Below are positions 5,594 through 34,889 of a stretch of DNA of 64,000 nt, in pieces; position 1 is the first letter of the stretch; every line of letters begins with the position of its first letter. A program made the translations under genes and the position numbers. The DNA is from Thermoplasmata archaeon (GTDB lineage: Archaea; Thermoplasmatota; Thermoplasmata; RBG-16-68-12; JAGMCJ01), in assembly GCA_046761045.1 (NCBI GenBank), contig JBHIFJ010000003.1, positions 4,835-68,834 of the forward strand. The letters are read 5' to 3'. The notes below the pieces were generated by a model. The model saw only the letters and a list, made by a program, of their open reading frames with translations, did not search any database and was not told the DNA's origin.

Positions 5594-6039
5594 CTCCTCA
5601 CCTCCGCCAGGCTTCTGGCATTCTCATACTTCTCTGGAATGCCCTCCTCGTAGGTTATCGCCTCAAGCGAGCAGAACTTCACGCAGGTCGGGTCGCCGTC
5701 GCAGAGGTTGCACTTGAAGGCAACATCATTCCTCATGTGGATGGCATCGAAAGGACAGGCCTCGACACACTCCCCGCAGCCTATGCACTCCTCGCGAACG
5801 ACCTCAATCACAACACCGCTCACCTCCTTGATGCACTCGACCGGGCAAACCTCTGCGCATTCCTTGTTGCATGAGGCCCCCTGATTGCATACGACGGGAA
5901 CATTCCTGTCGATGCCCTTCCTGTGAACCCTTATTCGAGCCCATTCCTTGTTGGCGAGCTCTTCGTGATGAAGCGAGCAGGTCATCTCGCACATTCTGCA
6001 GCCAGTGCAGAGCTCCAAGTGCGGAACAATTGCCCTCAT
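5590..6039 (-). CDS. 4Fe-4S dicluster ferredoxin-domain protein (AOR partner)
   Basis: The 149-aa product has multiple CxxCxxCxxxC(P) motifs (CTGCRMCEMTC, CIGCGECVEACP, CNLCDGDPTCVKFC). It overlaps the AOR start by 4 nt. Confidence 0.85.
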   Translation of the reverse strand: MRAIVPHLELCTGCRMCEMTCSLHHEELANKEWARIRVHRKGIDRNVPVVCNQGASCNKECAEVCPVECIKEVSGVVIEVVREECIGCGECVEACPFDAIHMRNDVAFKCNLCDGDPTCVKFCSLEAITYEEGIPEKYENARSLAEVRR

Positions 6040-6123: not shown

Positions 6124-7116
6124 CTAGTCCAAGTCGATATCGGAAAGCCTTGGTGCAGGAACAGACTCCTCTGCCTTGATCCTGGACTTTATCGCGAGTC
6201 TGACGGCACCCCGGATGTTTCCCGTCTGTTTCACTCTTACTGCTCTTCTCAGGAGATCGATAGCACCGGTCGTGTCCCCTCCCTTCTTCTCAACATGCGT
6301 AATCTTGGATTGCGCCCTTCTTACGGCGTCCTGAAATATCTTCATCTGCAGGACCGTGGTCTTTGCGATCTCGGCGCTGAGATTGGCGGCCCTGGTCGCC
6401 GAGAGGTAGTCGCCGCTCTCGTATGACTCCCTTGCGCTGATGAGGACGACCTCTGCTCGGGCAAGATCGGAAGGCACCTTGGACAGCTCCTCGTCGATTC
6501 TCGTCGACGCGCTCTCAATTGCCGCAACGGCGGATTCCCTAACACCTTCGTCACCGACCCATATGTTGGATCCGCAATCCGGGCATGTGCTCAACTCGGG
6601 GCCGACCTCTCTGTTGCACATCGGACAAAGGAACTCGGAGATGGACTTCCTCTCGGTCTCGAAGTCCAGCCATATCGCGGTTCCACAGCTTGAGCAACGG
6701 TCCTCCAGGAGGCTGACGACCACCCCGCAGACCGGACATCTGTAGTTGACATCCCTCTCTCTTTCCCTGTTGACGTAGTCGATTCCGCAATGAGGGCACT
6801 TGGTTGCATTTGGATCCACGATCTCATCGCAGAAGGGACATCTGAACTCGATTTCCTTTTCCTTGACCTCGATTCTGGGAGAACCACACATCTCACAGGC
6901 CTGGCCCTCAAGAGGACTCCCGCATACGAGACACATCGCCGTCGAATCCTCGGTCGGTGCGGGCAGCGGTTCCACGCCAACCTGTGTGTGCTGTCTATCC
7001 TTCTTGGGCTGGGCAGAGGGAGCTCCGCAGATGGGACACATCTCTTCGTCCCCATAGACAGCAGTGCAGATTCTGCAGACCCTCATCCTAGATGGCCGCA
7101 CGAACAATGCAGACAC
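6124..7116 (-). CDS. Protein with five tandem zinc ribbons and a C-terminal helical domain (function unknown)
   Basis: Five zinc ribbons are present: CRIC..CPIC, CLVC..CEMC, CPFC..CPHC, CPVC..CSSC and CPMC..CPDC. A helical tail of about 130 aa follows. The track start at 7116 is GTG, and ATG 7086 (MRVCRIC) is an alternative. Confidence 0.7.
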   Translation of the reverse strand: MSALFVRPSRMRVCRICTAVYGDEEMCPICGAPSAQPKKDRQHTQVGVEPLPAPTEDSTAMCLVCGSPLEGQACEMCGSPRIEVKEKEIEFRCPFCDEIVDPNATKCPHCGIDYVNRERERDVNYRCPVCGVVVSLLEDRCSSCGTAIWLDFETERKSISEFLCPMCNREVGPELSTCPDCGSNIWVGDEGVRESAVAAIESASTRIDEELSKVPSDLARAEVVLISARESYESGDYLSATRAANLSAEIAKTTVLQMKIFQDAVRRAQSKITHVEKKGGDTTGAIDLLRRAVRVKQTGNIRGAVRLAIKSRIKAEESVPAPRLSDIDLD

Positions 7117-7221
7117 TTCATTGATAGAAAAGCTTTTGGTGGCATTATCAGACCACGGAATCAGGTGGGTTGGACATCACTTTTCAGACACTGGGGAGGC
7201 AGCGCAACGATTTTATATGAT

Positions 7222-7250
7222 ACAAAAAAACGTACAAATGAGATTAAATA
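7222..7250 (+). promoter_or_regulatory. Shared operator-plus-TATA element, copy 1 (promoter of the membrane wHTH regulator)
   Basis: The sequence ACAAAAAAACGTACAAATGAGATTAAATA ends 25 nt before ATG 7275. Its spacing is identical to the copies at 8352 and 11383. Confidence 0.65.
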
Positions 7251-7274: not shown

Positions 7275-8273
7275 ATGGTGAGAGTGAGGTTCCTATCACT
7301 CGTTCTTCTTTCATCCTTTCTTGCATTTGGATTCATGATGGCGGGGGCTTCGGCCGGAGAAATGTTTGGTCAGGTTGCCGACATCGGCATGATTGACCAG
7401 ACACAGCTTTTCTTGCGCGTTCGCTCGGATTTCGACATCATTGACAGTGGAAGCGTCATCCCCATCTACGTGACTGTTGTCGATCAGCACGACGTTCCCG
7501 TACCTGGTGTGACAGTGAAGGTCTCTGTTGTGTCGCCCTCTGGGGAACGAGTTGACTCGTTGTACGTCACGGATTCCAATGGCGAGGTGACATTCGACTT
7601 CACAGCATCCACTCAAGGTCAGGATGAGTACGCAATCGAGTTCTTCGCGGAGAAGGTCAAATGCATACCCGATAACGACCGCCTATCAATGGTCGTCTTC
7701 GCGCCCTCTCCCCCCTTAAGCATCGAGGACGGAACGGAAGCGGTCTCCGTGGGGATAGGTGTTCTCGTCGCTGCCGCCTTTCTCAGCACGGAAGCTGGCT
7801 GGTACGCGATATTCAGAACGCTGATATTCCCGCTGTACACTAGACTCAGGAAGGAGGAGATACTCGATCACTTCGTTCGTGGGCAGATTTACGGTTTCAT
7901 AATGTCTCATCCAGGCGAGCACTACAATGCCATCAGAGGGTATCTGAAGGTCACGAATGGAACGCTCTCACATCACCTCAGGACATTGGAGATGCAGGGC
8001 TTCATAAAGTCACATCGAGATGGCGTCTTGAAGAGGTTCTATCCCGTTGACATGAGGATCCCACGGGATAAGGGCATAAAGCTCAGTGATCTTCAGATGG
8101 GTATGGTGGAGGTGATAAGGAGCTCCGATGGCGCCACGCAGGCTGACATCTGCAAGGAGCTCGGAGTGAGCCAGCAATGCGTGAGCTACAACCTCCGCAA
8201 CCTCAGTCGGGAGGGCGTTCTGAGGTTCGAGAGGGATGGAAGACTGAAGAGATATTATCTAGTAGACAACTGA
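7275..8273 (+). CDS. Membrane-tethered transcription regulator: signal peptide, Ig-like (Big_1-like) ectodomain, TM helix, two winged-helix HTH domains
   Basis: The domain order is as follows. An N-terminal hydrophobic signal (LSLVLLSSFLAFGFMMAGASA) is followed by an Ig-like block (IPIYVTVVDQHDVPVPGVTVKVSVVSPSGE..DSNGEVTFDF). A TM segment (VSVGIGVLVAAAFL) precedes two ArsR/MarR-like wHTH units (GEHYNAIRGYLKVTNGTLSHHLRTLEMQGFI and ATQADICKELGVSQQCVSYNLRNLSREGVL). Confidence 0.7.
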   Translation: MVRVRFLSLVLLSSFLAFGFMMAGASAGEMFGQVADIGMIDQTQLFLRVRSDFDIIDSGSVIPIYVTVVDQHDVPVPGVTVKVSVVSPSGERVDSLYVTDSNGEVTFDFTASTQGQDEYAIEFFAEKVKCIPDNDRLSMVVFAPSPPLSIEDGTEAVSVGIGVLVAAAFLSTEAGWYAIFRTLIFPLYTRLRKEEILDHFVRGQIYGFIMSHPGEHYNAIRGYLKVTNGTLSHHLRTLEMQGFIKSHRDGVLKRFYPVDMRIPRDKGIKLSDLQMGMVEVIRSSDGATQADICKELGVSQQCVSYNLRNLSREGVLRFERDGRLKRYYLVDN

Positions 8274-8351
8274 TGCAGGCAAGCGGGCCCGTGGGCAGTC
8301 GTTGGGGCCCACCTCGTAGGCACGAGGTGTACCAATAAGTTTAAATATTAT

Positions 8352-8380
8352 ACAAAACACCGTACAAATCTGCTTTTATA
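8352..8380 (+). promoter_or_regulatory. Shared operator-plus-TATA element, copy 2 (promoter of the ABC binding-protein gene)
   Basis: The sequence is ACAAAACACCGTACAAATCTGCTTTTATA. It lies about 108 nt upstream of ATG 8488, which is preceded by a GGAGGA Shine-Dalgarno-like site. Confidence 0.65.
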
Positions 8381-8487: not shown

Positions 8488-11319
8488 ATGATGAACGGGA
8501 AGAAACTAAGTGGAGTATCCGTCATCCTTTCTCTTGTTCTCGTGAGTGTGTTGGTCGTGGGATTGTTCCCGATCGGCGCACTCGCAGGAGAAGAGACAAG
8601 GGCGGAGAATATCTTGAGGGTGGGCGCCCAAGACGACACCAAGACCAGAAATATCTTCGGTGCAACAGATGTGTGGACATCGAATGTCTTGACGCCTGTG
8701 TATGAAGGTGTGGGTCAGGTAGACCCAGACACCGAGGACCCGATTCCCTATATCTTGAAAGGGATCGATGCCGATGACGATGGTGTATTAGATTTGGATG
8801 AGTACGGGGTCTACGGGAAAGAGACAGGAACTGAGGGCCGTGAGGTCACTGCCTACTATGATATGAACTGGGTGTACTCTCATGACGGCGTCCAGATGAC
8901 CATGGATGACCTGCTTTTCGGATACCACATAAACGCGCTGGATCCCCTCACGATATCCCTGGACGTTCTGAAGGACAAGAACAATCTCCCCGGGTCAAAC
9001 TACTCAACGAGCCGGTGGCTGAACGTTTGGCCGGTCCAGGGCAGCTGGGATCCTGCAATACCACTCGGACCCGACACTAGCCTGACATTCGCCCTTCATT
9101 TCTCGCAAACGGCAGACTACGCCAACTTCGTGAAGTACACGCTCAACGGTGCAACGGTAATGCCAAGACATGTCTGGGAGGGAACGGGCAAGATCTGTTT
9201 GGAGGCCACCAATGGTGTCTGCACCTCTTGGAAGGAGAACATTCACGCGGACTTCGGCTATGCATACGATCCAGTGACGCACAATGGCGTCCCTGCCGCG
9301 GCGCAGAACTCTTTTTCATACAGTGCCGCCGAGGAGTGGTTGCCAAGCGATGATGAGGTCATTGGAACTGGAGCATTCGAGTTCGACATCTGGAATCCCG
9401 GTGTGTCTGCCTTGCTCAACAGGTTCGAGGACTACTTCGGCGATGCCCTTGCCTGTACCAAGGACCCTGTGTCAGGGAAGTGCGCTGGCGAGTTCTACAA
9501 GTACATGCACAAACCCTACATCGAGGGGATGCTGTTCAAGATCTACAAGACGGCACAGGCAGCCGTCTTTGCGCTTCAGGCGGGAGAGATTGACGTTGTC
9601 TCCTGGTCCGTTCCTCCTGAGTTCGTCGGTGGACTGTTGGTCGACCCGAACATAGGAATCTTCAACACCGCCGAGAAGGGTTTCTTCTATCTTAGCTACA
9701 ACATGAGGATGTCTCCATTCGGCTATCCCAACAATGATCCGTCGCTGGGTGACGATGGTTTGTACCTGAGGAAGGCAATGGCCCATGTCATCGACAAGAA
9801 GACGATCGTGACGACGCTGCTGCAGAACTTCGGCGTTGCCGGAGACCAGCCGGTTAGTCCCGCCTTCACAACATTCTACAACGGCTCGGTTCAGAAGTAT
9901 GATTTCGAGCTGGATGCCGCAAGGCAACTTCTGGATGACCACTATACGGTTGGCGGACTCAGTCTCGGCTACGGACCCAACGGATACAGGAACCTTCCGA
10001 CCATAGGAGACCGCCCTGTCGACATACTGTGTCCGCAGGCAGACTACGATCCGATCAGGGCATCAGCATGCAACATGATCGCGGCAAACGCGAGGGACGT
10101 TGGACTGAACTTCCACGCAAAGCTCCTCGCATTCGGAGAGATCGTGACCAGACTCGACAATCGCGACATGGAGATGTGGGTCCTAGGGTGGAGAATCGGC
10201 TCAGATCCTCCAGACTACTATCACGCCTTCTTCTATTCTGGCAATGCACCTGCGGGGCAGAACTATGAGGGATTCCAGAACGAGACCTTTGATAATCTGA
10301 TTACCGCCGCTCGGGCAACGCTAGACGCAGACGAGCAGGCTGAACTGATTAAGGAGTGCAGCGGAATCCTCATGGATGCCGTGCCCTACGATGTCCTCTA
10401 CTTCAGAACGAACATCGAGGCCTACAGGTCGGATAGGTACGACAATTGGACCGTCGGACCCGCCGGATCCATTTTCGGAGGGTCCTTCTGGTCCAGGATA
10501 GGAATCCATGCGCCCTCTCCGGACGCATTGACGATTTCACCGCCAGTGATGAAATCCGATGTTGCATCAGGTTCGACCGAGGACGTTGCGGCCACGGTGA
10601 GGGATCCTGACGGCAATGTGGTGGCAGGCGCTCCCGTTCAGATGACACTGAGCGGTTCCGGGGCCCTCGGCAACCTGAGCATTCCTGGTGGAGAAACCGG
10701 AACTACCGTCAATGGCGTGACGAACATCAACGGGAAGTTGGTCGCGAAGTACCTCGCACCCACGGTGGCGAACGAGACAGAAGTGTTTGTATCCGCGCAG
10801 GCACTAGAGTTTGGGGAATATCCCGCCTCAACTGTGCAGTTCTCCCGAGTGGATGTTCATCCCCCAGGCACCCAATTCCTATCGGTACTGGTGGAACCGA
10901 CCTTCTTCGCTATTGAAGAGGGCGGTACGATGACAATCGAGGTGACGGTTACCGACCAGGCCGGCGTGGCTGTGGATGGAGCGCTTGTCAATCTGGTGAC
11001 GATTCCGTCAGGACCAACGCTCGCTCCAGACTCCGGAACAACGATAGTTGGATCAATCGGTACGATTGTCTTCACTGCGCCTGAGTCACTTCCGGAAGGC
11101 CTGGAGGAGCAGCTGTACACACTGACGGTCACCGCCAACCTGACCGGATACCTCCCAGCCGAAGACTCGAAGGATATCACTATCCTAGCTCCGACTTTGG
11201 CTGGAGGAGGCGGCGGTTCCAGAACGGAAGTTCCGGCGCTCGATGTCGTCGCGACCGTGGCGGTCATCGCGCTCGTGACCGTGAGCCTTGCTGTATACCG
11301 TGGAACGAAGAGAAGGTAA
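8488..11319 (+). CDS. ABC transporter substrate-binding protein, family 5 (Opp/Dpp type), with C-terminal Ig-like domains and a TM anchor
   Basis: The start is set at ATG 8488 after GGAGGA (the track start 8461 is GTG). A signal-anchor precedes a family-5 SBP core (YKTAQAAVFALQAGEIDV, FFYLSYNMR, LRKAMAHVIDK, GWRIGSDPPDYY). Two Big_1-like repeats, a Gly-rich linker, a TM helix and a KRR tail follow. Confidence 0.85.
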   Translation: MMNGKKLSGVSVILSLVLVSVLVVGLFPIGALAGEETRAENILRVGAQDDTKTRNIFGATDVWTSNVLTPVYEGVGQVDPDTEDPIPYILKGIDADDDGVLDLDEYGVYGKETGTEGREVTAYYDMNWVYSHDGVQMTMDDLLFGYHINALDPLTISLDVLKDKNNLPGSNYSTSRWLNVWPVQGSWDPAIPLGPDTSLTFALHFSQTADYANFVKYTLNGATVMPRHVWEGTGKICLEATNGVCTSWKENIHADFGYAYDPVTHNGVPAAAQNSFSYSAAEEWLPSDDEVIGTGAFEFDIWNPGVSALLNRFEDYFGDALACTKDPVSGKCAGEFYKYMHKPYIEGMLFKIYKTAQAAVFALQAGEIDVVSWSVPPEFVGGLLVDPNIGIFNTAEKGFFYLSYNMRMSPFGYPNNDPSLGDDGLYLRKAMAHVIDKKTIVTTLLQNFGVAGDQPVSPAFTTFYNGSVQKYDFELDAARQLLDDHYTVGGLSLGYGPNGYRNLPTIGDRPVDILCPQADYDPIRASACNMIAANARDVGLNFHAKLLAFGEIVTRLDNRDMEMWVLGWRIGSDPPDYYHAFFYSGNAPAGQNYEGFQNETFDNLITAARATLDADEQAELIKECSGILMDAVPYDVLYFRTNIEAYRSDRYDNWTVGPAGSIFGGSFWSRIGIHAPSPDALTISPPVMKSDVASGSTEDVAATVRDPDGNVVAGAPVQMTLSGSGALGNLSIPGGETGTTVNGVTNINGKLVAKYLAPTVANETEVFVSAQALEFGEYPASTVQFSRVDVHPPGTQFLSVLVEPTFFAIEEGGTMTIEVTVTDQAGVAVDGALVNLVTIPSGPTLAPDSGTTIVGSIGTIVFTAPESLPEGLEEQLYTLTVTANLTGYLPAEDSKDITILAPTLAGGGGGSRTEVPALDVVATVAVIALVTVSLAVYRGTKRR
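9448..9627 (+). repeat. Near-identical 180-nt tract shared with the paralogous SBP gene (copy A)
   Basis: Hand alignment to the reverse complement of 33554..33733 gives 6 mismatches in 180 nt. A run of 93 nt (9535..9627) is identical. Confidence 0.85.
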
Positions 11320-11337
11320 ACCCTTCTCACCCTTCCC

Positions 11338-11346
11338 TTTATTTTT
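11338..11346 (+). terminator. Oligo-T tract after the binding-protein gene (candidate archaeal terminator)
   Basis: The tract TTTATTTTT lies 19 nt after the TAA stop at 11317-11319. It is directly upstream of the internal promoter copy 3. Confidence 0.35.
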
Positions 11347-11382
11347 GGGCCCCGCGACGAGCCATTCGTGAGCCCACTGGCT

Positions 11383-11411
11383 ACAAAATCCCGTACAAAT
11401 GACGTTAAATA
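11383..11411 (+). promoter_or_regulatory. Shared operator-plus-TATA element, copy 3 (internal promoter for the permease and ATPase genes)
   Basis: The sequence ACAAAATCCCGTACAAATGACGTTAAATA ends 33 nt before ATG 11445. Confidence 0.65.
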
Positions 11412-11444: not shown

Positions 11445-13157
11445 ATGAGACTGAGAAGCTTCCTCATCAGGAGGGCCTTACACACAGTCATCACGCTTGT
11501 TGTCATCCTGGTCCTCCTGTTCATAATCTTCAGAATGATGCCCGGGGATCCGACGAGATTCTTCATTGAACCGGGACAGCCACCGGACGTCAGGGACCGG
11601 CTTCTTGTCGATTTTGGATTCTCCAAGTGGACGACCGCTCCCGGAGTCTATCGTGTGGCCTCCTTCGAGGCCTTCGATGATGGTGCATACGGGATCAGGG
11701 TGGAAGTCAATGCCACAGGCGTCATCGAACCCCCTGAGTTCCACAATGAAACCCTTTACTCTTCATACGTGAGGGCGAAGCGATACTTCCCGAGCGAGGA
11801 TCCCTTGGTGATTTGGAATGTAACGTTCTCCGAGGCTCCCACGGGCAACATCACCGTGGGCCAGACCTTTAACGTTACTTTCGATGTGAAGTCACCGGAG
11901 GGAATGACAAGGATAGTCTCAATTGACCTGGTTAGAAACGATGACCCCAACCAGACGGTGACGCTCAACCTCACAGGGTCAGGTGCTCAGATTGGCGCGA
12001 GCGGTCAGTGGGGGAGATACACCACGACAATGAGCGCCACTCAGCCTGGGTTCTATAGAATGACCCTGTCCGTCCATGATTCCACGCTCGGTCTCACAGA
12101 AGAAGCGGAGTACGGCTACGCGGTCAATCCAAGCGACATTCATCCCTTTCAGCTCGTTGTTGGTGAGGGCAACATTTTCACCTCACGCAATGTGTTCGCG
12201 GAATCGATCGGGGAGCTGACCCTCGCCGTCAAGGTGGAGGTCGAAGGCAAGCTCGTACCCATCGACGACTCTGGCTTGGTGGGATATGTCACCTCTCCGA
12301 CGGGAGAGGTCTCCACGCTCCAGCCCCCTGATCAGCTGATACACCCTCAGATAGTGGTTCCGCTTCCAGTGTGGGAGCAATTCTGGGAGTACTTCACTTC
12401 CATGATAACAGGTGATTTCGGGATTTCCTTCTTCTCCAAGCGACCTGTTTGGGTTGAGATTGCCCAAAGGGCGCCCGCCACAATCCTCCTCTTCGGGACC
12501 GCACTTGCTCTTTCTGCCCTTATCGGCATCGGCATCGGAGCGATACTGGCGTGGCGGCGGGGAACAAGCCTGGAGATGTCAGCCATCGTTGTCAGCCTGT
12601 TCTTCTACTCCATGCCACTGTTCTGGTTTGGATTGATTCTGCTCTGGGCATTCGGCTTCAGGCTTCAGTGGTTCCCATTGGGCGGGATAGGCGGTGTGGA
12701 CGAAGCCGGAAGGCCACTTGAAGGCCTTGCCTATATCGCCGACATCTTGTGGCACATGACACTTCCCCTGGTCACGCTTATGATGGTCAATCTGGCGGGA
12801 TACGTCCTCCTCATGCGAAACTCGATGCTTGAAGTTCTCGGAGAGGACTATGTCACAACCGCAAAGGCCAAGGGCCTGAGCGAGAGGACCGTGATGTACA
12901 AGCATGCGGCAAGGAACGCGCTTCTGCCCGTTGCCACGGTCATCGCCCTTGGCGTGGGTGGCGTCATCAGTGGTGGCGTTCTCACGGAGACGATATTCTC
13001 CTGGCCCGGAATGGGCTACTTCCTTGTAACCTCCACGATACAGCAGGACTACCCAGCGGTTCAGGGTACATTCTTCCTCCTGGCAATAATGACTGTGCTG
13101 GCGAACGTGGCTGCAGACGTGCTGTATGCCTACCTTGATCCAAGGGTGAGGTTGTAG
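11445..13157 (+). CDS. ABC permease, OppB/DppB type, with an extracytoplasmic insertion of about 245 aa
   Basis: The start MRLRSFLIRRALHTVITLVV is a typical OppB N-terminus (the track start 11424 is TTG). Conserved GDFGISF and EDYVTTAKAKGL (EAA-loop) blocks are present. A beta-rich, sequon-rich insert separates TM1 from the GDFG block. Confidence 0.85.
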   Translation: MRLRSFLIRRALHTVITLVVILVLLFIIFRMMPGDPTRFFIEPGQPPDVRDRLLVDFGFSKWTTAPGVYRVASFEAFDDGAYGIRVEVNATGVIEPPEFHNETLYSSYVRAKRYFPSEDPLVIWNVTFSEAPTGNITVGQTFNVTFDVKSPEGMTRIVSIDLVRNDDPNQTVTLNLTGSGAQIGASGQWGRYTTTMSATQPGFYRMTLSVHDSTLGLTEEAEYGYAVNPSDIHPFQLVVGEGNIFTSRNVFAESIGELTLAVKVEVEGKLVPIDDSGLVGYVTSPTGEVSTLQPPDQLIHPQIVVPLPVWEQFWEYFTSMITGDFGISFFSKRPVWVEIAQRAPATILLFGTALALSALIGIGIGAILAWRRGTSLEMSAIVVSLFFYSMPLFWFGLILLWAFGFRLQWFPLGGIGGVDEAGRPLEGLAYIADILWHMTLPLVTLMMVNLAGYVLLMRNSMLEVLGEDYVTTAKAKGLSERTVMYKHAARNALLPVATVIALGVGGVISGGVLTETIFSWPGMGYFLVTSTIQQDYPAVQGTFFLLAIMTVLANVAADVLYAYLDPRVRL

Positions 13158-13158
13158 C

Positions 13159-16100
13159 ATGGTGTCCAAGCAGAGACTTTATGAGAGGTTTCGAAGCTAC
13201 TACAAGGCCTTCAAGCAGAACTGGGATCTCTTCAAGGCGAGCAGGATTGGCCTTGTTGGTCTTGGAATCCTCGTGTTCTTCTTGGTGATAGCTCTAATCA
13301 CGCCGGCCCTGAATCTTCGCGATCCCATAAACTGGAGAGCCCCCGAAGAGGATCTGATTAGGGTCGACCAGTACTGGTACGTTGACACATCAACGGTGCT
13401 GTTCAAGGCTGGAGACCCCATCAACACATCCATTGCCTTCAGGCTCATACCAAAGGAACTAGACCCCTCTTCGGATCGAATCTATTTCGCCTCCGGAGAT
13501 AAGGTCATTGCCCTGCGCCCGTCAACAGGACAGTCCGTTTGGTATGTCGGCAGCGAGTCCGATAAGGTTTGCTGTTTCCAAGCCGATTCCACGGTGACCG
13601 CGGGGCCGGTCGTGGTCAACTACGGTTCGGTCGACAGCCCGGAGTTCGCAGACTGGGTCCTGTATTTCGGAACTGAGAGCGGGGAGTTCTACCAGCTGAA
13701 TGAGGCTGGAACCCTCGAGATCGACCTGACGAGACGATCCTCACACATACCAACGGGGGAGGATGTCTTCACGGCCACGCTCGATAGCACCGTAACGGGT
13801 ATTGCCGTTTTCGCGGACGAGACATCCAATCGAAGGGCATATGAGAGGGTTTTCGTCGGGACCGAGGAGGGGAAGGTGTATGCCTTTTCCAGCATTTGGA
13901 AGGACGACGAGACCTGGTTCTACAATGTCAGCTCCAACCAATGGATGAGAGCATATCCGCAGGAACGTCCCTTCCCTCAAGACCGGCACGTCATGGCATA
14001 CAGTCCAGAGTCAAAGAAGGTCCTCCTCGTCAGCGGAGACAACGGTGTTGGGTCTCAGAGCGCGGACCTGGTCCAGACGTGGATATTCAACCTCACCAGT
14101 AAGGAGTGGACTGAGTTGGACAACCTCTCGAGTGCGCCCCCTTACAGGCGAGAGAGCGCAATGGCCTACGTTCCAAGCTGGAATTCCGCACTGATGTACG
14201 GTGGGAAGCAGAAGACCTCAATACTGGATGATATGTGGCAGTTCAACTTCACTACTGAGAGATGGAATCAGGTGAACTATAGCGGCGCCCCCGATTGGAG
14301 AAGCGGGCACTCGATGGCATACAGCAGCGGTGACAACGCAGTCTACATGTTCGGGGGAAGAGTTACGGACCTTAACAAGACGTTGAAGCTGAACCTCACA
14401 AGTCTTACGTGGTCTGATGTGCCGACTAACTCAAGCGCAATCGCCCGGATGGGCACATCCATGATATATGATGCTGCGAAGAACAGACTCATCATATTCG
14501 GTGGCGAAGAGTACGTTGAGGACAACGATAACAATCAGACCAAACTCTTGAACCTCTCCTCAGGTCAGTGGGGATACATCGAGAGCCCTCAGGACCTGAC
14601 CCCGAGGGCATGGCAGTCCCTCGCCTATGACAGTGTCACGAACACTGCAATTCTCTTTGGCGGTCTCGGCACGAACCCCGAGCGAATACAGGAAACGTGG
14701 CAGTTGAACCTCACGACCGACAACTGGACTCAACTGAACACAACCCTCATGCCCTCTGCACGTCACGGTTCCTCAACGGTCTTCTTGGACAGCTCGGAGA
14801 TGTTCCTCTTCGGGGGAGATGACTATCAACCCAGCGAGCTTTGGAACATGACAGCGCCTCGAGGACCAATCGTGATGGCGGATCTTCCCTTGATGATCAA
14901 GAATTCTCCCATGTTCTCACCCGCCGTTGCCTACTCCTCGGGCGGGAGCTATTCTGGTGAATACCTTGTCTTCAATGCTGGAGGATATCTGGCCAATGTC
15001 TTCACAAGGAACGGGTCATATGTATGGACCGATGAGGCCGCTCACGGATACATCTTGAACGGCACAATACTGATAGGAGACGATTGGTCTACGGCGCCGA
15101 TAATCTCCCAGCCAGAAGGCTCTATTCCTCCCCTGATATTCCTGGGGACCAGCAACGGTTTCATACACGCATTCTATCCCGAGGACGGAGGGGTCTACGA
15201 ACCTTGGGTCACGATCCCTCCTGGAGAGGAGTTCCCGGACGGAAAGCAGAACCAGAACAACTCCATAATCGGGATACAGGTCGCGAGGACCATCCTGGAC
15301 ATAGATGGGGGCGTTCTGACAAGGCCAGAGCCGTATGGCTCATACGTTTACGTGGGCTCGAGCACGGGCACCTTCTATGCCATCCAAAGGGACAGAATCA
15401 GGGAGCTGCCCGCGGGCAGGGCGCGCGGAATCTTTGAGGTACCTGTGCAACCAAGGGAGCAGTTCGTGTTCAACACACCCCCCTACTATCTCGTCGGGTC
15501 AAGTATCGTTCTCATTGCTGGATACAATGACAACGGAACCGCGAACGACTGGACCGATGACAGGAGCACGATATATTCCTTCAACACAGATGGCACTGTC
15601 TCATGGAAGCAGACATTTGATGCACGGATTAATGGCGCACTCAATGTGTGGAGGGACGAGCCTGGTTCCCGCCATCTCCACAAGAGCGTCTTTGCCGGAA
15701 TGACCGACGGAACGATTCAGGTCTATTCATCAAGCGGTGAGTACCTCGCTCCATTGCCGCCCACGTGGATGTCCTCCGTCCCAAGCGGAAACACGTATTG
15801 GCTCGGCACGGACAACCAGGGGAGGGACCTGTACAGTCAATGGATGTGGGGCACCCGTGTGGCTTTGACGGTCGGGCTGTTGGCGGCTTTCTTCTCCATT
15901 TCCATTGGCACGATCATAGGGCTGGTCTCTGGATATACCGGGGGCAAGGTCGACTCCGTTTTGATGAGATTCACGGACGTGATACTTGTCCTTCCAGGTC
16001 TCCCGCTCGTCATCATCCTGGCCGCTGTCCTCGGTGCCGGGATATGGAACATCATTCTGGTCATAACAATAGTGGGTTGGCCGGGAACAGCCAGAGTCAT

Positions 16101-16467
16101 AAGGTCCGAGGTTCTCTCTTTGAAGGAAAGGCCGTTCATCGACTCAGCGAGAGTAACGGGGGCAAGTAACATCAGGATAATGTTCAAACACATTGCCCCA
16201 AACGTCCTCCCGCTCGCCTTCCTCTACATGACGTTCGCCGTGAGCGGTGCGATTCTCACCGAGGCGGCACTGAGCTTCATCGGCCTAGGGGATGTGAACA
16301 CACCCAGCTGGGGACAGATGTTGATGTTCATCCAACAGTCCAACGTCCTGGGTTCCTGGTGGTGGCTTCTCCCGCCGGGTCTGGGCATCACATTCCTCTC
16401 GCTCGCGTTCTATCTAATCGGCAGAGGATATGAGCAAATAGTCAATCCACGTCTGAGGCAGAGGTGA
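13159..16467 (+). CDS. ABC permease, OppC/DppC type, carrying an ectodomain of about 830 aa built from nested beta-propeller repeats
   Basis: The 1102-aa product has an N-terminal TM helix. The canonical OppC core appears only from about residue 870 (YWLGTDNQGRDLYSQWMWGTRVAL ... PFIDSARVTGAS ...). Between the two lie six Kelch-like blades flanked by PQQ/BamB-like blades. Confidence 0.85.
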   Translation: MVSKQRLYERFRSYYKAFKQNWDLFKASRIGLVGLGILVFFLVIALITPALNLRDPINWRAPEEDLIRVDQYWYVDTSTVLFKAGDPINTSIAFRLIPKELDPSSDRIYFASGDKVIALRPSTGQSVWYVGSESDKVCCFQADSTVTAGPVVVNYGSVDSPEFADWVLYFGTESGEFYQLNEAGTLEIDLTRRSSHIPTGEDVFTATLDSTVTGIAVFADETSNRRAYERVFVGTEEGKVYAFSSIWKDDETWFYNVSSNQWMRAYPQERPFPQDRHVMAYSPESKKVLLVSGDNGVGSQSADLVQTWIFNLTSKEWTELDNLSSAPPYRRESAMAYVPSWNSALMYGGKQKTSILDDMWQFNFTTERWNQVNYSGAPDWRSGHSMAYSSGDNAVYMFGGRVTDLNKTLKLNLTSLTWSDVPTNSSAIARMGTSMIYDAAKNRLIIFGGEEYVEDNDNNQTKLLNLSSGQWGYIESPQDLTPRAWQSLAYDSVTNTAILFGGLGTNPERIQETWQLNLTTDNWTQLNTTLMPSARHGSSTVFLDSSEMFLFGGDDYQPSELWNMTAPRGPIVMADLPLMIKNSPMFSPAVAYSSGGSYSGEYLVFNAGGYLANVFTRNGSYVWTDEAAHGYILNGTILIGDDWSTAPIISQPEGSIPPLIFLGTSNGFIHAFYPEDGGVYEPWVTIPPGEEFPDGKQNQNNSIIGIQVARTILDIDGGVLTRPEPYGSYVYVGSSTGTFYAIQRDRIRELPAGRARGIFEVPVQPREQFVFNTPPYYLVGSSIVLIAGYNDNGTANDWTDDRSTIYSFNTDGTVSWKQTFDARINGALNVWRDEPGSRHLHKSVFAGMTDGTIQVYSSSGEYLAPLPPTWMSSVPSGNTYWLGTDNQGRDLYSQWMWGTRVALTVGLLAAFFSISIGTIIGLVSGYTGGKVDSVLMRFTDVILVLPGLPLVIILAAVLGAGIWNIILVITIVGWPGTARVIRSEVLSLKERPFIDSARVTGASNIRIMFKHIAPNVLPLAFLYMTFAVSGAILTEAALSFIGLGDVNTPSWGQMLMFIQQSNVLGSWWWLLPPGLGITFLSLAFYLIGRGYEQIVNPRLRQR

Positions 16468-16477
16468 TCCGGTGGCG

Positions 16478-17743
16478 ATGCTAGAAGTGAACAATCTCAA
16501 AACCTACTTCAGAATATTGAAGGGGACCGTGTACGCTGTTGACGGTGTCACGTTCCATCTCGATCGCGGTGAAACCATGGGCCTCGTGGGAGAATCTGGA
16601 TGCGGGAAGACAACGACCGCGTTTGCCATCACGAGGCTCCTTCCGTCCAACGGTAGAATCGTTGGAGGCGAGATCATCTTCGATGGCACTCTCATTGGTC
16701 GGGCCGACTTCCCCACCGAGCTCGCGGAGGTCCTGAAGGAACCACTGTGGCTCGAGGAGACCAAGGCACTCGTTGAAAGAAAGATGAACAGGCTCGCCAT
16801 CTCAGAGGGGGATCCCTCAACTGTGATGGAGTCAAGGATGCTGCTGGAGCAGGAGAGGGCATGTGTCGAGGAGGTCAATGCCATCCTCAACGATGCCAGC
16901 CTCTCAAAGGAGGAAATGAAGGGAGAGCTCGAGGACCTCGTTGATGGAGAACTCAATAGCTTCCTGGCAAGGCGGCGGAGGAGGCGAATCGAGCGGGAAA
17001 TCGAGGAGAAGATGATGGATATCAGGTGGAGCAAGATATCGATGATCTTCCAGGGAGCCATGAACGCCTTCAATCCGGTCTACAAGGTCGGTGATCAGAT
17101 CGTGGAGGCCCTGCTACGCCACGAGGACATGACGAAGGATGAGGCAAAGGAGAGGGTCCTTGAGCTGTTCGACCTCGTGGGTCTCGACCGCTCGCGAGTC
17201 ACAGGCTATCCGCACGAGTTCAGCGGCGGCATGAGGCAGAGGGCTATCATTGCCATGTCGCTTGCCTGCAACCCGCAGCTCATAATAGCCGACGAGCCAA
17301 CGACCGCGCTCGACGTCATCATGCAGGACAGAATACTCGGGGAGATCAGAGACCTTCAGAAAGAGTTCCACATTGCTATGATGATAATCACACACGACAT
17401 CTCGGTCGTCGCAGAGGTTTCTGAGACGATAGGAATCATGTATGCGGGGAAGCTCTTCGAGTTCGGCGACATAGTCTCCATCTTCGAGAGGTCTGCGAAC
17501 CCCTATACCATCGGGCTGACGGGGGCCTTCCCCAGCATCAAGGGCGAGCGAAAGAGGCTGATATCCATCCCCGGCTCCCCGCCGGACCTCTCAGCGCCAC
17601 CGCACGGATGCAGATTCCATCCCAGATGCAAATTCGCACAGGACATATGCAGGAAGGAGGAACCCAAGAGCGTCGAAGTGGCTAAGAACCACTGGTCCAT
17701 GTGCCATTTCGCCAGGGAGATATATTCGGGCCAACTCGCCTGA
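16478..17743 (+). CDS. ABC ATPase, OppD type, with a helical insertion of about 95 aa
   Basis: The Walker A motif (GESGCGKT), signature (FSGGMRQR), Walker B (LIIADEPTTALD) and the oligopeptide C-terminal Cys/His motif (HGCRFHPRC..C) are all present. A charged insert lies between IIFDG and ISMIFQG. Confidence 0.85.
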   Translation: MLEVNNLKTYFRILKGTVYAVDGVTFHLDRGETMGLVGESGCGKTTTAFAITRLLPSNGRIVGGEIIFDGTLIGRADFPTELAEVLKEPLWLEETKALVERKMNRLAISEGDPSTVMESRMLLEQERACVEEVNAILNDASLSKEEMKGELEDLVDGELNSFLARRRRRRIEREIEEKMMDIRWSKISMIFQGAMNAFNPVYKVGDQIVEALLRHEDMTKDEAKERVLELFDLVGLDRSRVTGYPHEFSGGMRQRAIIAMSLACNPQLIIADEPTTALDVIMQDRILGEIRDLQKEFHIAMMIITHDISVVAEVSETIGIMYAGKLFEFGDIVSIFERSANPYTIGLTGAFPSIKGERKRLISIPGSPPDLSAPPHGCRFHPRCKFAQDICRKEEPKSVEVAKNHWSMCHFAREIYSGQLA

Positions 17744-17752
17744 GGTGATAAG

Positions 17753-18958
17753 TTGGAAGCGTCAGAGGAAGCAGTTGCCGCGGAAATGGATGAGGACGTT
17801 GTCTATAGGGTCACGAATCTCAAGAAGCACTTCCCGATAAAGTCGGGATTCCTTGCCTCACTCTTTGGAAGGGAGAAGGTCGTTCACGCTGTGAATGGAG
17901 TTGATTTCTCGATCGGTGAAGGCGAGATTCTAGGGATGGTTGGCGAGTCCGGTTGCGGCAAGACAACATGCGGACGTCTCCTCGTCAGACTCGAGACGCC
18001 CACAGAGGGCCACATGTACTTCACCGGCAAGGACATCGCCGCGCTCAAGGGAAGGGAGCTGAAGGTGTTTCGCAGGGATGTCCAGATGGTCTTCCAGGAC
18101 CCATACGAATCGCTGAATCCGAGATTGACAGTCTTCGCAACCGTTGCGGAGCCCCTGGTCGTTCATGGTGTGGGAGAGTCCTCGGATGAGAGGGTGGACA
18201 TGGTGGCAAAGGCGCTCCAGTATGCGGAGCTGAAACCGCCTGAGGAGTTCATGTACAGGTATCCTCACGAGTTGAGCGGGGGGCAGAGGCAGAGGGTCGC
18301 GATTGCAAGAACCCTCGTGCTCCGGCCGAAGTTCATTGTGGCGGATGAGCCCGTGAGCATGCTCGACGTTTCCATCCGGGCTGGAATAATGAATCTCATG
18401 CTGAGCCTGAGAGAGCAGTACAAGATCCCGTTCCTCTTCATATCCCACGATGTGTCCGTGACCAGATATATGAGCCATAGAATCGCTGTCATGTATCTCG
18501 GGTTCATAGTGGAGCTCGGCTCATCGGAGGATGTCATCAAGGACCCGATGCATCCGTATACGGAGGCTCTGCTGTCGGCGGTTCCCGTTCCGGATCCAAA
18601 GGCCAAGCACGGAAGGGTGAAGATTAGGGGGGATCTTCCCAGCCCCATAGACCTCCCGCCCGGGTGCGTGTTCCATCCCAGATGCCTGTACCGTAAGGAC
18701 ATATGCGACAAGGAGCTGCCGCAGTTCAAGGAGGTGAGGCCTGGTCACTTCGCCCTGTGCCATTTCGCTGGGGAGCTTCCGATTAAGAGGCCTGATGACG
18801 AGGAGGTATTCGAGGAAGGTGTCTGCGACCTCTGCAAGGCCACAATCAAGAAGGGAATGCCGTTCGCGCGTTGCGACTGCAACAAGCTGTACCACGAATC
18901 TTGCGCCGGACAGCTCGGCGAATGCCCCGTGTGCAAGAAGGGTCTCCAGGTGGAGTGA
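17753..18958 (+). CDS. ABC ATPase, OppF type, fused to a C-terminal C4HC3 zinc finger
   Basis: The Walker A motif (GESGCGKT), signature (LSGGQRQR), Walker B (FIVADEPVSMLD) and PGCVFHPRC..C are present. The tail is C-x2-C-x12-C-x-C-x4-H-x2-C-x6-C-x2-C. The start is uncertain (TTG 17753 or ATG 17786). Confidence 0.85.
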   Translation: MEASEEAVAAEMDEDVVYRVTNLKKHFPIKSGFLASLFGREKVVHAVNGVDFSIGEGEILGMVGESGCGKTTCGRLLVRLETPTEGHMYFTGKDIAALKGRELKVFRRDVQMVFQDPYESLNPRLTVFATVAEPLVVHGVGESSDERVDMVAKALQYAELKPPEEFMYRYPHELSGGQRQRVAIARTLVLRPKFIVADEPVSMLDVSIRAGIMNLMLSLREQYKIPFLFISHDVSVTRYMSHRIAVMYLGFIVELGSSEDVIKDPMHPYTEALLSAVPVPDPKAKHGRVKIRGDLPSPIDLPPGCVFHPRCLYRKDICDKELPQFKEVRPGHFALCHFAGELPIKRPDDEEVFEEGVCDLCKATIKKGMPFARCDCNKLYHESCAGQLGECPVCKKGLQVE

Positions 18959-20125: not shown

Positions 20126-20198
20126 GGGCCTGTGGTCTAGTGGTTATGACGTCACCCTTACAAGGTGGAGGTCGGCGGTTCAAATCCGCCCAGGCCCA
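20126..20198 (+). tRNA. tRNA-Val (anticodon UAC)
   Basis: The sequence GGGCCTG/CAGGCCC forms a 7-bp acceptor stem. The anticodon stem is TCACC/GGTGG with loop CTTACAA, the T-arm is GGCGG-TTCAAAT-CCGCC, and the discriminator is A. There is no encoded CCA. Confidence 0.9.
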
Positions 20199-34736: not shown

Positions 34737-34766
34737 GTTTATAAGAAATTTGGTATATCTTTTTGT
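34737..34766 (-). promoter_or_regulatory. Degenerate fourth copy of the shared operator-plus-TATA element
   Basis: The reverse strand reads ACAAAAAGATATACCAAATTTCTTATAAAC. The architecture is the same, but the second half-site carries a 1-nt insertion (TACCAAAT). Confidence 0.45.
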
Positions 34767-34889
34767 ATCACCGCTTCCATGCCAGAGCGACATTCCGTGT
34801 TCCAATTTGCCAAATAGCAGTGACCATGGGGGTTTTCTGTACAGATTCTCAACCTTGAACACCAAAGCCAGACACGGTGCTTGAGGTAG

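What the first reader, a model, noticed from the sequence alone, without database searches (positions are those of the whole stretch)
7275..8273. One-component transmembrane transcription factor with an Ig-like sensor outside and two winged helices inside
The predicted topology is signal peptide, Big_1-like ectodomain, one TM helix, then two ArsR/MarR-like wHTH domains in the cytoplasm. The gene has the shared operator in its own promoter and lies directly upstream of the ABC operon. Its ectodomain is of the same Ig-like type as the C-terminal tails of both SBPs. One speculative mechanism is that SBP occupancy is sensed by Ig-to-Ig contact at the membrane and relayed to DNA bound at the membrane, in a ToxR/CadC-like manner.
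Basis: inference. Interest (0 to 1): 0.65.

Follow-up and report, generated by a model that had tools for sequence, protein, structure and literature searches.

The report
Membrane-anchored archaeal regulator of peptide transporter
This gene very probably encodes a transcription factor anchored in the cell membrane of an uncultured vent archaeon, with a small Ig-like domain outside and two DNA-binding domains inside, which controls itself and the neighbouring nutrient importer through a conserved DNA repeat next to each promoter; it is the smallest member of a large, unstudied family.

Summary
ORF 7275-8273 (+) encodes 332 aa. The order is an N-terminal signal-like helix, an Ig-like beta-sandwich, one TM helix, then two tandem winged helices (PF24266-type and MarR/ArsR-type).

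A direct repeat, YACAAAR-N5-TACAAAT, lies 4 nt upstream of a TATA box. It occurs four times in 64 kb and none is expected by chance. The sites precede the regulator, SBP1, the permease genes and a distant paralogous SBP2.

In 42 informative Thermoplasmatota loci (39-86% identity):
- 34 have the SBP_bac_5/Opp-type ABC operon immediately downstream.
- 5 more have it within 8 kb.

A matrix built from the window sites alone finds the element in those loci, in the regulator and SBP promoters. It finds none beside paralogues. One paralogue clade has a different repeat of the same geometry at its own TATA box.

I read it as an autoregulated transmembrane one-component regulator of the importer. It is probably an activator, judging from the position abutting BRE/TATA. 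DNA binding is inferred, not shown.

The Ig-to-Ig sensing of SBP occupancy is unsupported. The domains are of the same type, but cognate pairs are no more alike than non-cognate pairs.

It resembles ToxR/CadC only by analogy, because the topology is inverted. I rate it a new variant of a known kind.

The parts
7211..7218 (+). Upstream TATA-like box (TTTTATAT), 2 nt before the first half-site. It is probably the remnant or partner of a tandem 33-nt unit.
   Evidence: Sequence read. The consensus of 81 sites shows a conserved TTATATA at this position.
7221..7239 (+). Direct-repeat element TACAAAA-AAACG-TACAAAT in the regulator's own promoter (putative autoregulatory operator).
   Evidence: The same site lies 33-47 nt before the start codon in 28 of 49 orthologue loci.
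7244..7250 (+). TATA box (TTAAATA), 4 nt after the element and 24 nt before the ATG. This implies a leaderless or near-leaderless mRNA.
   Evidence: spacing statistics. The transcription start is inferred from the usual archaeal TATA-to-start distance, not measured (no RNA runs).
7275..8273 (+). Coding sequence of the transmembrane regulator, 332 aa plus stop.
7275..7355 (+). Signal peptide or N-terminal hydrophobic helix (aa 1-27): R3 and R5, a hydrophobic core, then A-S-A before G28.
   Evidence: Hydropathy and charges; helix 2-22 in the model; an N-terminal hydrophobic segment is found in nearly all orthologues. Cleavage is inferred.
7404..7703 (+). Extracellular Ig-like beta-sandwich (aa 44-143), Big_1/macroglobulin-like.
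   Evidence: Big_1 at 31.8 bits; pLDDT above 90. Foldseek: C5 MG4 (6rpt, E 8e-7), alpha-2-macroglobulin (2p9r), CARDB (3idu). Profile hits to invasin and intimin.
7731..7790 (+). Transmembrane helix (aa 153-172), ending in the near-invariant T-E-x-G-x-Y motif (T172, E173, G175, Y177).
7791..7856 (+). Juxtamembrane helix (aa 173-194) with the invariant P-L-Y-x-R motif (P186 L187 Y188 R190; the preceding F185 is near-invariant). There is no flexible linker before wHTH1.
   Evidence: Invariant columns; continuous helix 173-211.
7857..8048 (+). Winged helix 1 (aa 195-258), PF24266 HTH_HVO_0163_N type. Its recognition helix NGTLSHHLRTLE is conserved across the whole family, paralogues included.
   Evidence: (5duk_A, E 1e-5).
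8076..8261 (+). Winged helix 2 (aa 268-329), MarR/ArsR type. Its recognition helix S-Q-Q-x-V-S-Y-N-L-R is specific to the orthologues, so it is the likely reader of specificity.
   Evidence: ArsR 6j05, AdcR 3tgn; MepR and ArsR at rmsd 1.1-1.5 A.
8340..8380 (+). SBP1 promoter: upstream TATA-like box (8340-8347), element TACAAAA-CACCG-TACAAAT (8351-8369), TATA box TTTTATA (8374-8380).
   Evidence: Conserved upstream of the SBP gene in 31 of 49 orthologue loci.
8488..11319 (+). SBP1: SBP_bac_5 solute-binding protein with Ig-like tail domains and a C-terminal TM anchor. The likely start is ATG 8488, after GGAGG.
11382..11411 (+). Internal promoter before the permease genes: element TACAAAA-TCCCG-TACAAAT plus TATA box TTAAATA. 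It follows a T-rich stretch (11337-11346) after the SBP1 stop codon.
   Evidence: The same site is present in the close relatives L001, L008, L010-L012.
11445..18958 (+). Transporter genes: OppB-like permease (11445-13157), OppC-like permease with a Kelch beta-propeller (13159-16467), and two ATPases with the oligo_HPY domain (16472-17743, 17753-18958).
34738..34767 (-). Fourth copy of the element plus TATA box (TACAAAA-AGATA-TACCAAA-TTTC-TTATAAA), upstream of the orphan SBP2.
31862..34705 (-). SBP2: a paralogous SBP_bac_5 protein, 62% identical to SBP1, with an Ig-like tail. It is a probable member of the same regulon.

Best explanation
The gene encodes a single-pass, type-I transmembrane one-component transcription regulator.

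Predicted layout:
- A Sec-type signal sequence puts a roughly 100-residue Ig-like domain outside the cell.
- One TM helix follows.
- Almost without a linker come two tandem winged-helix domains in the cytoplasm.

Inferred steps:
- The tandem winged helices bind the direct repeat YACAAAR-N5-TACAAAT. wHTH2 supplies the specificity.
- The repeat sits 4 bp upstream of the TATA box, about -36 to -54, abutting the BRE. It is found at four promoters: the regulator's own, SBP1, the permease/ATPase genes and the distant SBP2.
- The protein therefore autoregulates and sets the expression of an Opp/Dpp-type (probably peptide) ABC importer.
- Because the site lies just upstream of BRE/TATA, the most likely action is activation by helping TFB/TBP onto the promoter. 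I put this at about 55%, against repression by occlusion.
- The cue is extracellular and reaches the DNA-binding module through the TM and juxtamembrane helix. What the small Ig-like domain touches is unknown.
- All targets encode membrane or secreted proteins and lie next to the regulator gene. Coupled transcription, translation and membrane insertion would therefore keep the DNA near the membrane-bound factor.

Shown here: the domain order, the element and its four copies, the synteny, and the way the element changes together with the regulator subfamily.
For: 1. Architecture. Pfam, hydropathy and two AlphaFold2 models agree. The single winged helices superpose on MepR/MarR and ArsR at 1.1-1.5 A.

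2. Element. There are four copies in 64 kb and none in shuffles, all directly upstream of a TATA box and of the regulator or transporter genes.

3. Synteny.
- Regulator followed by SBP_bac_5, two permeases and two ATPases at 78, 50, 50, 44 and 41% identity, with different upstream neighbours.
- 34 of 42 informative loci have the SBP gene immediately downstream; 39 of 42 have it within 8 kb.

4. Independent test. A matrix built only from the four window sites gives:
- 81 hits of at least 16 bits in 616 kb of orthologue loci, 72 of them followed by N4 plus TATA;
- sites in the regulator promoter in 28 of 49 loci and in the SBP promoter in 31 of 49;
- 5 hits in 461 kb of paralogue loci, none with a TATA box;
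- 0.4 hits per 100 kb in shuffles.

5. Co-variation.
- The wHTH2 recognition helix is nearly invariant in orthologues (Q300, Q301, S304, Y305, N306). It differs in paralogues (0.32 identity, against 0.70 for wHTH1).
- A paralogue clade of about 810-890 aa carries, at its own TATA box, a repeat of the same 7-5-7-4-7 geometry but a different sequence (TTCCAAC-N5-TACTACA-N4-TTTAAATA). It is found in 13 loci, against 0.012 expected per window. The regulator gene is the only thing these loci share with the orthologue loci.

6. Precedents. Archaeal activators bind just upstream of BRE/TATA: TFB-RF1 on an ABC transporter operon (PMC5937170) and the membrane-bound ArnR at -43 to -84 (PMC6396743).
Against: - No binding, expression or topology experiment exists. 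No RNA runs cover this sequence, so transcription starts are inferred.
- Only about 20 structured residues separate the TM helix from wHTH1. That may hinder DNA binding at the membrane.
- wHTH1 is conserved across paralogues that have different or no detectable elements, so its role is unclear.
- Three of 42 loci lack the SBP operon downstream. In L024 other ABC systems follow instead.
- 21 of 49 orthologue loci show no site of at least 16 bits upstream of the regulator. Some lack the upstream sequence and some have weaker sites.
- Activation versus repression cannot be decided from position alone. A second TATA-like box upstream of the repeat complicates the reading.
Confidence: 0.7

Rival explanations
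1. The regulator's Ig-like ectodomain contacts the membrane-proximal Ig-like domain of the SBP tail. It thereby reads whether the SBP is loaded, making the importer a co-sensor.
For: - Both domains are Big_1-like. Each sits directly before a TM segment, so at the same height above the membrane.
- In about 20 of 28 loci the ectodomain's best match within its own SBP is that last Ig domain.
- Co-sensing through transport proteins is known in bacteria (own knowledge: LuxP-LuxQ, TorT-TorS, LysP-CadC).
Against: - Cognate pairs are no more similar than non-cognate pairs (mean rank 12.4 of 28, 14.5 expected).
- No similarity is detectable in the L004, L005, L035, L048-L051 clade, which still keeps the synteny and the element.
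- The conserved ectodomain residues are the generic Big_1 fold signature.
- The permeases also carry large extracellular domains that could equally be the partner.
Confidence: 0.15
2. The same protein and the same operator, but it acts as a repressor. Bound next to or over the BRE/TATA, it blocks TFB/TBP, and the external cue releases it.
For: - The second half-site ends only 4 bp from the TATA box, so it overlaps the expected BRE.
- If the upstream TATA-like box were the real one, the repeat would cover the transcription start.
- Many ArsR/MarR-type proteins are repressors (own knowledge).
Against: - In all sites the well-conserved TATA box is the downstream one.
- Its distance to the regulator's ATG (about 22-26 nt) fits a leaderless start.
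- Characterised archaeal factors that bind just upstream of BRE/TATA activate.
Confidence: 0.3
3. The membrane form is an inactive precursor. A protease cuts in or near the TM helix and releases the soluble tandem winged-helix module, which then binds the element (regulated intramembrane proteolysis).
For: - The linker between the TM helix and wHTH1 is very short.
- The near-invariant T-E-x-G-x-Y motif at the cytoplasmic end of the TM could be a recognition or helix-breaking feature.
Against: - No protease gene is linked to the locus in the neighbourhoods read.
- The known archaeal membrane-bound factor ArnR binds DNA as full-length protein (PMC6396743).
- The motif could equally serve signal transmission.
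Confidence: 0.15
4. The protein is not the factor that binds the element. It is an accessory membrane subunit of the transporter whose winged helices make protein contacts, and a different regulator reads the repeat.
For: - Tandem winged helices also occur in proteins that do not bind DNA, such as ScpB and ESCRT-II, which appear among the fold matches.
- wHTH1 is conserved irrespective of the element.
Against: - The element sits in the regulator's own promoter.
- It changes sequence together with the regulator subfamily in loci that share no other gene.
- Both domains match ArsR/MarR DNA-binding families above Pfam cut-offs and superpose on DNA-bound MepR.
Confidence: 0.07

Closest known systems
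ToxR / TcpP / CadC (bacterial transmembrane transcription regulators)
   Same: - Single-pass membrane protein with a cytoplasmic winged-helix DNA-binding part and an extracytoplasmic sensor.
- Acts on nearby genes.
- Binds a direct repeat with about one helical turn between half-sites. The ToxR box is TNAAA-N5-TNAAA (PMC8517210); here it is TACAAAA-N5-TACAAAT.
   Different: - The orientation is inverted: a signal peptide and the sensor at the N-terminus, and the DNA-binding module at the C-terminus.
- There are two tandem ArsR/MarR-type winged helices instead of one OmpR-type domain (no Trans_reg_C hit).
- There is almost no linker between the membrane and the DNA-binding part.
- The promoter is archaeal, with TATA/BRE.
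ArnR / ArnR1 of Sulfolobus acidocaldarius (the characterised archaeal membrane-bound transcription factors)
   Same: - Archaeal one-component factors that stay in the membrane.
- They bind repeated boxes upstream of BRE/TATA (-43 to -84) and activate (PMC6396743).
   Different: - ArnR has an N-terminal HTH, a cytoplasmic HAMP/sensor part, two C-terminal TM helices and no ectodomain.
- Its boxes are inverted repeats.
- It is a crenarchaeal archaellum regulator, not a transporter regulator.
Transmembrane transcription regulators as a class (Demey et al. 2023, PMC10269533)
   Same: It fits the class definition of a predicted DNA-binding domain plus at least one TM region. The survey found about 4 such proteins per archaeal genome, mostly single-pass.
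   Different: The passages I read and the terms I searched did not mention this family, its tandem winged-helix module, its operator or its link to an ABC importer.
Pfam PF24266 (HTH_HVO_0163_N) and PDB 5duk ('putative DNA binding protein', 77 aa)
   Same: wHTH1 matches PF24266 above its cut-off. The family profile matches 5duk_A at E 1e-5.
   Different: Those are stand-alone or N-terminal domains with no published function found. Here the domain follows a TM helix and is paired with a second winged helix.
ArsR/SmtB and MarR family regulators (e.g. ArsR 6j05, MepR, AdcR/ZitR)
   Same: wHTH2 has the same fold and sequence signature: Pfam hits above cut-off, and rmsd 1.1-1.5 A over 62-67 residues.
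   Different: - Those are soluble homodimers on palindromic operators, with metal or ligand sites and dimerisation helices.
- This protein is membrane-anchored and carries two different winged helices in one chain (38% identical to each other).
- Its site is a direct repeat.
TFB-RF1 and TrmB/TrmBL1 (Thermococcales regulators of ABC transporter operons)
   Same: - Archaeal control of ABC transporter genes from sites adjoining BRE/TATA.
- TFB-RF1 binds just upstream of a weak BRE and recruits TFB (PMC5937170).
   Different: They are soluble cytoplasmic proteins of other families, with palindromic sites and cytoplasmic ligands.

Membership tests
Transmembrane transcription regulator (TTR, sensu Demey et al. 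2023) | A predicted DNA-binding domain | tested here: met
   PF24266, MarR_2, HTH_20, HTH_24 and HTH_5 all score above their Pfam cut-offs. Structural matches to MarR and ArsR.
Transmembrane transcription regulator (TTR, sensu Demey et al. 2023) | At least one predicted transmembrane region | tested here: met
   Hydrophobic segment aa ~154-180 with acidic-outside and basic-inside flanks; helix 153-170 in the model; conserved in orthologues.
Transmembrane transcription regulator (TTR, sensu Demey et al. 2023) | Regulates transcription while in the membrane | not testable with these tools
   Only comparative inference is available: the operator in its own and target promoters.
ToxR/CadC-type regulators | N-terminal cytoplasmic OmpR-type (Trans_reg_C) winged helix | tested here: not met
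   Trans_reg_C is not among the 25 best of 36 Pfam families listed at E up to 1. The DNA-binding domains are C-terminal and match ArsR/MarR-type families.
ToxR/CadC-type regulators | Type II topology (N-terminus in, C-terminal periplasmic sensor) | tested here: not met
   N-terminal signal-like helix, then the ectodomain, TM helix and C-terminal cytoplasmic module.
ArnR family | N-terminal HTH, HAMP/sensor domain, two C-terminal TM helices | tested here: not met
   Different domain order and no HAMP hit. The ArnR architecture is taken from PMC6396743.
Pfam PF24266 HTH_HVO_0163_N | Score above the gathering threshold | tested here: met
   43.8 bits against 31, aa 202-259. Also present in all listed homologues and paralogues.
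MarR family | MarR-type winged helix | tested here: met
   MarR_2 at 38.0 bits against 27, and MarR at 29.8 against 24.6, aa 270-323. MepR superposes at rmsd 1.1 A with 30% identity.
MarR family | N- and C-terminal helices forming the homodimer interface; palindromic operator | tested here: not met
   No such helices flank wHTH2 in the models. The element is a direct repeat.
ArsR/SmtB metalloregulators | ArsR-type HTH | tested here: inconclusive
   Pfam HTH_5 and HTH_20 score above their cut-offs. NCBIfam HTH_metalloreg scores 51.2 bits, below its cut-off of 55.
ArsR/SmtB metalloregulators | Metal-binding ligand sets (alpha3N or alpha5 sites) | not tested
   There are only two Cys in the cytoplasmic part and neither is in an invariant column. 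Site geometry was not examined.
Big_1 (bacterial Ig-like domain group 1) | Score above the gathering threshold | tested here: inconclusive
   31.8 bits against 34.9 in this protein. Many homologues carry a precomputed Big_1 hit. The fold matches MG, Big_1 and CARDB-type sandwiches.

The most novel reading that the evidence does not exclude
The Thermoplasmatota may use this module (signal peptide, exchangeable ectodomain, TM helix, tandem winged helices) as a general way to signal from outside to promoter, acting on DNA held at the membrane.

In the small subfamily studied here, the Ig-like ectodomain would dock on an extracellular part of the importer: the SBP tail, or the Kelch or insert domains of the permeases. 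Transport activity itself would then be the signal. The factor would activate by recruiting TFB/TBP from a site fused to the TATA box.
Probability: 0.15. Interest if true: 0.8.

Novelty: new variant of a known kind. Interest (0 to 1): 0.55.

Why it matters
- Membrane-bound transcription factors are barely studied in archaea. As far as I found, ArnR and ArnR1 are the only characterised cases.
- Here is a large family: 419 clusters at 50% identity with E up to 1e-30. Its topology is inverted relative to ToxR/CadC, and its ectodomains are exchangeable (Ig-like, FG-GAP, beta-helix/NosD, CARDB).
- For the smallest subfamily there is a defined operator, a defined regulon and a fixed promoter geometry.
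- The question of how a membrane-tethered factor works with the TBP/TFB machinery therefore becomes directly testable with a 160-residue soluble fragment and 60-bp DNA fragments.
- It also suggests how uncultured, probably peptide-degrading sediment and vent Thermoplasmatota tune their main nutrient importer.

Tried and rejected
1. RNA evidence for transcription starts. The stretch is held by four hydrothermal-vent metagenome runs, but no RNA run could be listed.

2. Known RNA elements in the intergenic regions. Only one sub-threshold snoRNA-like match, inside the SBP1 coding sequence.

3. A test for specific pairing of the ectodomain with its own SBP tail. Cognate versus non-cognate BLAST scores gave no signal.

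4. Similarity of the ectodomain to the extracellular inserts of OppB or OppC. None found.

5. An error of mine. In some searches the 'SBP1' query was one base out of frame (8489 instead of 8488). I found this and redid the analysis with the same counts. The earlier SBP hits had come from the correct SBP2 query.

6. My first pattern searches used wrong spacings. They were corrected.

7. Two element-like sites in L073 (minus strand, 11535 and 11578) lie upstream of an 853-aa protein with no Pfam hit. This was uninformative.

8. Names of paralogue clusters gave no taxonomy beyond Thermoplasmatota.

9. Literature searches for HVO_0163, and for this family linked to Thermoplasmata oligopeptide transporters, found no functional study.

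10. I did not attempt a fused-chain complex prediction. The tool returns no interface information, and only about 28 paired sequences were available.

11. The sigma-70 promoter scan was not used, because the organism is an archaeon.
Full report
**What is there**

The ORF at 7275-8273 (+) encodes 332 residues. Pfam places three domains:
- A Big_1-like domain at aa 55-116, at 31.8 bits, just under the 34.9 cut-off.
- An HTH_HVO_0163_N winged helix at aa 202-259, at 43.8 bits against 31.
- A second, MarR/ArsR-type winged helix at aa 270-323. MarR_2, HTH_20, HTH_24 and HTH_5 all score above their cut-offs.

NCBIfam gives only a sub-threshold ArsR/SmtB match.

Hydropathy finds exactly two hydrophobic segments, aa ~4-26 and ~154-180:
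- The N-terminus carries R3 and R5, and an A-S-A motif precedes G28.
- The stretch before the second segment is acidic. The stretch after it is basic.
- The segment between them is strongly acidic (7 K/R, 22 D/E). The C-terminal part is basic (25 against 17).

An AlphaFold2 model built on 43 homologues has mean pLDDT 84.7:
- helix 2-22;
- a beta-sandwich at 46-142, with pLDDT above 90;
- helix 153-170;
- one long helix, 173-211, that runs straight into the first winged helix (to 257);
- a second winged helix at 272-329.

A separate model of aa 168-332 has pLDDT 81.7 and pTM 0.65.

Fold and profile comparisons:
- The sandwich resembles macroglobulin MG domains, CARDB and invasin/intimin Big_1 domains.
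- Each winged helix superposes on MepR/MarR and ArsR at 1.1-1.5 A.
- wHTH1 matches PDB 5duk.
- The two winged helices are 38% identical to each other, so they are an internal duplication.

Cleavage of the signal peptide is inferred.

**The DNA element**

A direct repeat, TACAAAA-N5-TACAAAT, is followed after 4 nt by a TATA box. It occurs at four places:
- 7221-7250, before the regulator;
- 8351-8380, before SBP1;
- 11382-11411, before the permease genes, after a T-rich stretch that follows the SBP1 stop;
- 34738-34767 on the minus strand, before a second SBP that is 62% identical to SBP1.

Shuffled sequence gives none. In a matrix scan of the window the four sites score 21-28 bits, against 15.7 for the next best.

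In the regulator's promoter the TATA box ends 24 nt before the ATG. That fits a leaderless transcript. The repeat would then lie at about -36 to -54, touching the expected BRE. The transcription start is inferred, because no RNA data exist. No Rfam family matches the intergenic regions.

**Relatives and synteny**

The protein has more than 120 full-length homologues, all from Thermoplasmata/Thermoplasmatota metagenome bins. They are named only 'winged helix-turn-helix', 'MarR' or 'ArsR' regulators.

Five contigs were read with called genes, at 78, 50, 50, 44 and 41% identity. In each the regulator sits directly upstream, on the same strand, of an SBP_bac_5 gene, two permeases and two ATPases. 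The upstream neighbours differ.

A scan of one genome per species returned 80 loci, all Thermoplasmatota. Of 42 non-duplicate orthologue loci with enough downstream sequence:
- 34 have the SBP gene within 900 bp.
- 5 have it 4.7-7.4 kb away. In one clade this is because of an insertion that includes a Cdc48-like ATPase.
- 3 have none. In L024 other ABC systems follow instead.

**The element travels with the regulator**

A matrix made only from the four window sites was run on the other loci.

| Sequence set | Hits of at least 16 bits | Followed by N4 plus TATA |
|---|---|---|
| Orthologue loci (616 kb) | 81 | 72 |
| Paralogue loci (461 kb) | 5 | 0 |
| Shuffles | 0.4 per 100 kb | not counted |

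In the orthologue loci the sites fall in the regulator's promoter in 28 of 49 loci, mostly 33-37 nt before the start codon. They fall in the SBP promoter in 31 of 49.

The consensus is ttatAtAntatACAAAAnnccGTACAAATnnnnTTaTATA. A second TATA-like box lies just upstream. Several SBP promoters carry two 33-nt units in tandem.

**A larger family**

The C-terminal module (TM end plus two winged helices) finds many clusters at 50% identity:
- 419 at E up to 1e-30;
- 2477 at E up to 1e-10.

In the 150 best hits listed the module lies at or near the C-terminus of proteins of about 160-1850 aa; the short ones are probably fragments.

Paralogues in the same genomes keep the topology. They carry large, different ectodomains: FG-GAP plus He_PIG, beta-helix/NosD plus Big_7, CARDB, and NPCBM-associated. 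No Opp operon lies nearby.

Conservation of the two recognition helices differs:
- wHTH1 is conserved between orthologues and paralogues (0.70 identity).
- wHTH2 is not (0.32). Orthologues share S-Q-Q-x-V-S-Y-N-L-R.

One paralogue clade of about 810-890 aa has, at its own TATA box, TTCCAAC-N5-TACTACA-N4-TTTAAATA.
- The 7-5-7-4-7 geometry is the same, but the half-sites are different.
- It occurs in 13 loci, usually as the only such site in 16 kb. The chance expectation is 0.012 per window.

The regulator gene is the only thing these loci share with the orthologue loci. This is the strongest available argument that the protein itself reads the repeat, and that autoregulation beside the TATA box is a family trait.

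**Mechanism**

My best reading, at 0.7, is an autoregulated transmembrane one-component regulator of the Opp/Dpp-type importer.

Activation seems somewhat more likely than repression. Archaeal factors that bind just upstream of BRE/TATA activate: TFB-RF1 on an ABC transporter operon (PMC5937170) and membrane-bound ArnR (PMC6396743). A site this close to the BRE could also occlude it, however.

The very short, structured connection between the TM helix and wHTH1, with the near-invariant T-E-x-G-x-Y and P-L-Y-x-R motifs, allows two readings. It suggests rigid transmission of a signal. It also raises the question of whether DNA can be bound at the membrane. Release by proteolysis remains a rival.

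**The Ig-to-Ig idea**

The ectodomain and the last Ig-like domain of the SBP tails are of the same type, and both sit next to a TM segment. Three observations weaken the idea:
- Cognate pairs are no more alike than non-cognate pairs.
- One clade shows no similarity at all.
- The conserved ectodomain residues are generic fold residues.

The idea is not excluded, but nothing specific supports it. The permeases' large extracellular domains are equally plausible partners.

**Comparison and novelty**

The protein fits the broad class of transmembrane transcription regulators (PMC10269533). It fails the defining features of ToxR/CadC (an OmpR-type N-terminal domain and type II topology) and of ArnR. 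I found no study of this family.

I rate it a new variant of a known kind, with interest 0.55. The anatomy and the regulon are well supported by comparative evidence and are readily testable. The sensing mechanism, the sign of regulation and the DNA binding itself remain unproven.

Noticed in passing
window 13159-16467 (+): The OppC-like permease is 1102 aa. About 800 residues between its N-terminal TM helix and the BPD_transp_1 core form a Kelch-type beta-propeller, presumably extracellular (Pfam Kelch_KLHDC2_KLHL20_DRC7 at 1e-50). It is conserved in relatives (L001, L005). In L003 and L006 an insert of similar size has no Kelch hit.
   Followed up: partly
window 11445-13157 (+): The OppB-like permease (570 aa) has an insert of about 300 residues with no Pfam match, between BPD_transp_1_N (aa 5-40) and the core (aa 361-569). 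Every membrane component of this importer therefore carries extra extracellular mass.
   Followed up: no
window 8488-11319 (+) and 31862-34705 (-): Two SBP_bac_5 proteins, 62% identical, each with Big_1-like Ig tail domains. SBP1 ends in a C-terminal TM anchor seen in its sequence. The second gene is an orphan 23 kb away but carries the same promoter element. In L004, L005, L035 and L048-L051 the extra SBP gene sits directly upstream of the regulator instead.
   Followed up: partly
window 11320-11411: A T-rich stretch (CTTTATTTTT, 11337-11346) follows the SBP1 stop codon. After it comes an internal promoter with the element. This suggests that SBP1 is transcribed separately from, and probably more strongly than, the permease genes. 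The internal site is present only in close relatives.
   Followed up: partly
window 6124-7116 (-): A 330-aa protein with several double zinc ribbons (DZR, 2e-12) and a helical C-terminal half is transcribed divergently from the regulator. The same neighbour occurs in L001, L004 and L005, but not in L003 or L006.
   Followed up: no
window 3737-6039 (-): By its sequence and by Pfam calls on the syntenic genes in L001, L004 and L005, this is an aldehyde:ferredoxin oxidoreductase (618 aa) with a 4Fe-4S ferredoxin gene. I ran no Pfam scan on the window copies. The pair would fit a peptide- or amino-acid-fermenting lifestyle.
   Followed up: no
window 20126-20198 and 40474-40546 (+): Two tRNA-Val genes (anticodons TAC and CAC). 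They appeared first as a 79% identical 75-nt repeat.
   Followed up: yes
L071, L077, L082-L086 and others, just upstream of the ~815-aa paralogue genes: This paralogue clade has its own conserved promoter element, (A/T)T(T/A)C(C/A)AAC-N5-TACTA(C/T)A-N4-TTTAAATA. Its geometry is the same as that of the window element.
   Followed up: partly
L013, L014, L017, L032 (between the regulator and the SBP gene): In this 53%-identity clade about 7.3 kb is inserted between the regulator and the SBP gene. The insert holds two genes without Pfam hits, a Cdc48-like double AAA ATPase and an oppositely oriented NosD/Big_5 protein.
   Followed up: partly
L073 11535-11600 (-): Two element-like sites 43 nt apart (19.8 and 18.7 bits) lie upstream of an 853-aa ORF with no Pfam match. 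L073 is from the complete genome CP070767.1. This may be a further regulon member.
   Followed up: partly
window 8274-8330: A GC-rich inverted repeat (GGGCCC ... GGGGCCC) lies between the regulator's stop codon and the SBP1 promoter. It was not analysed.
   Followed up: no
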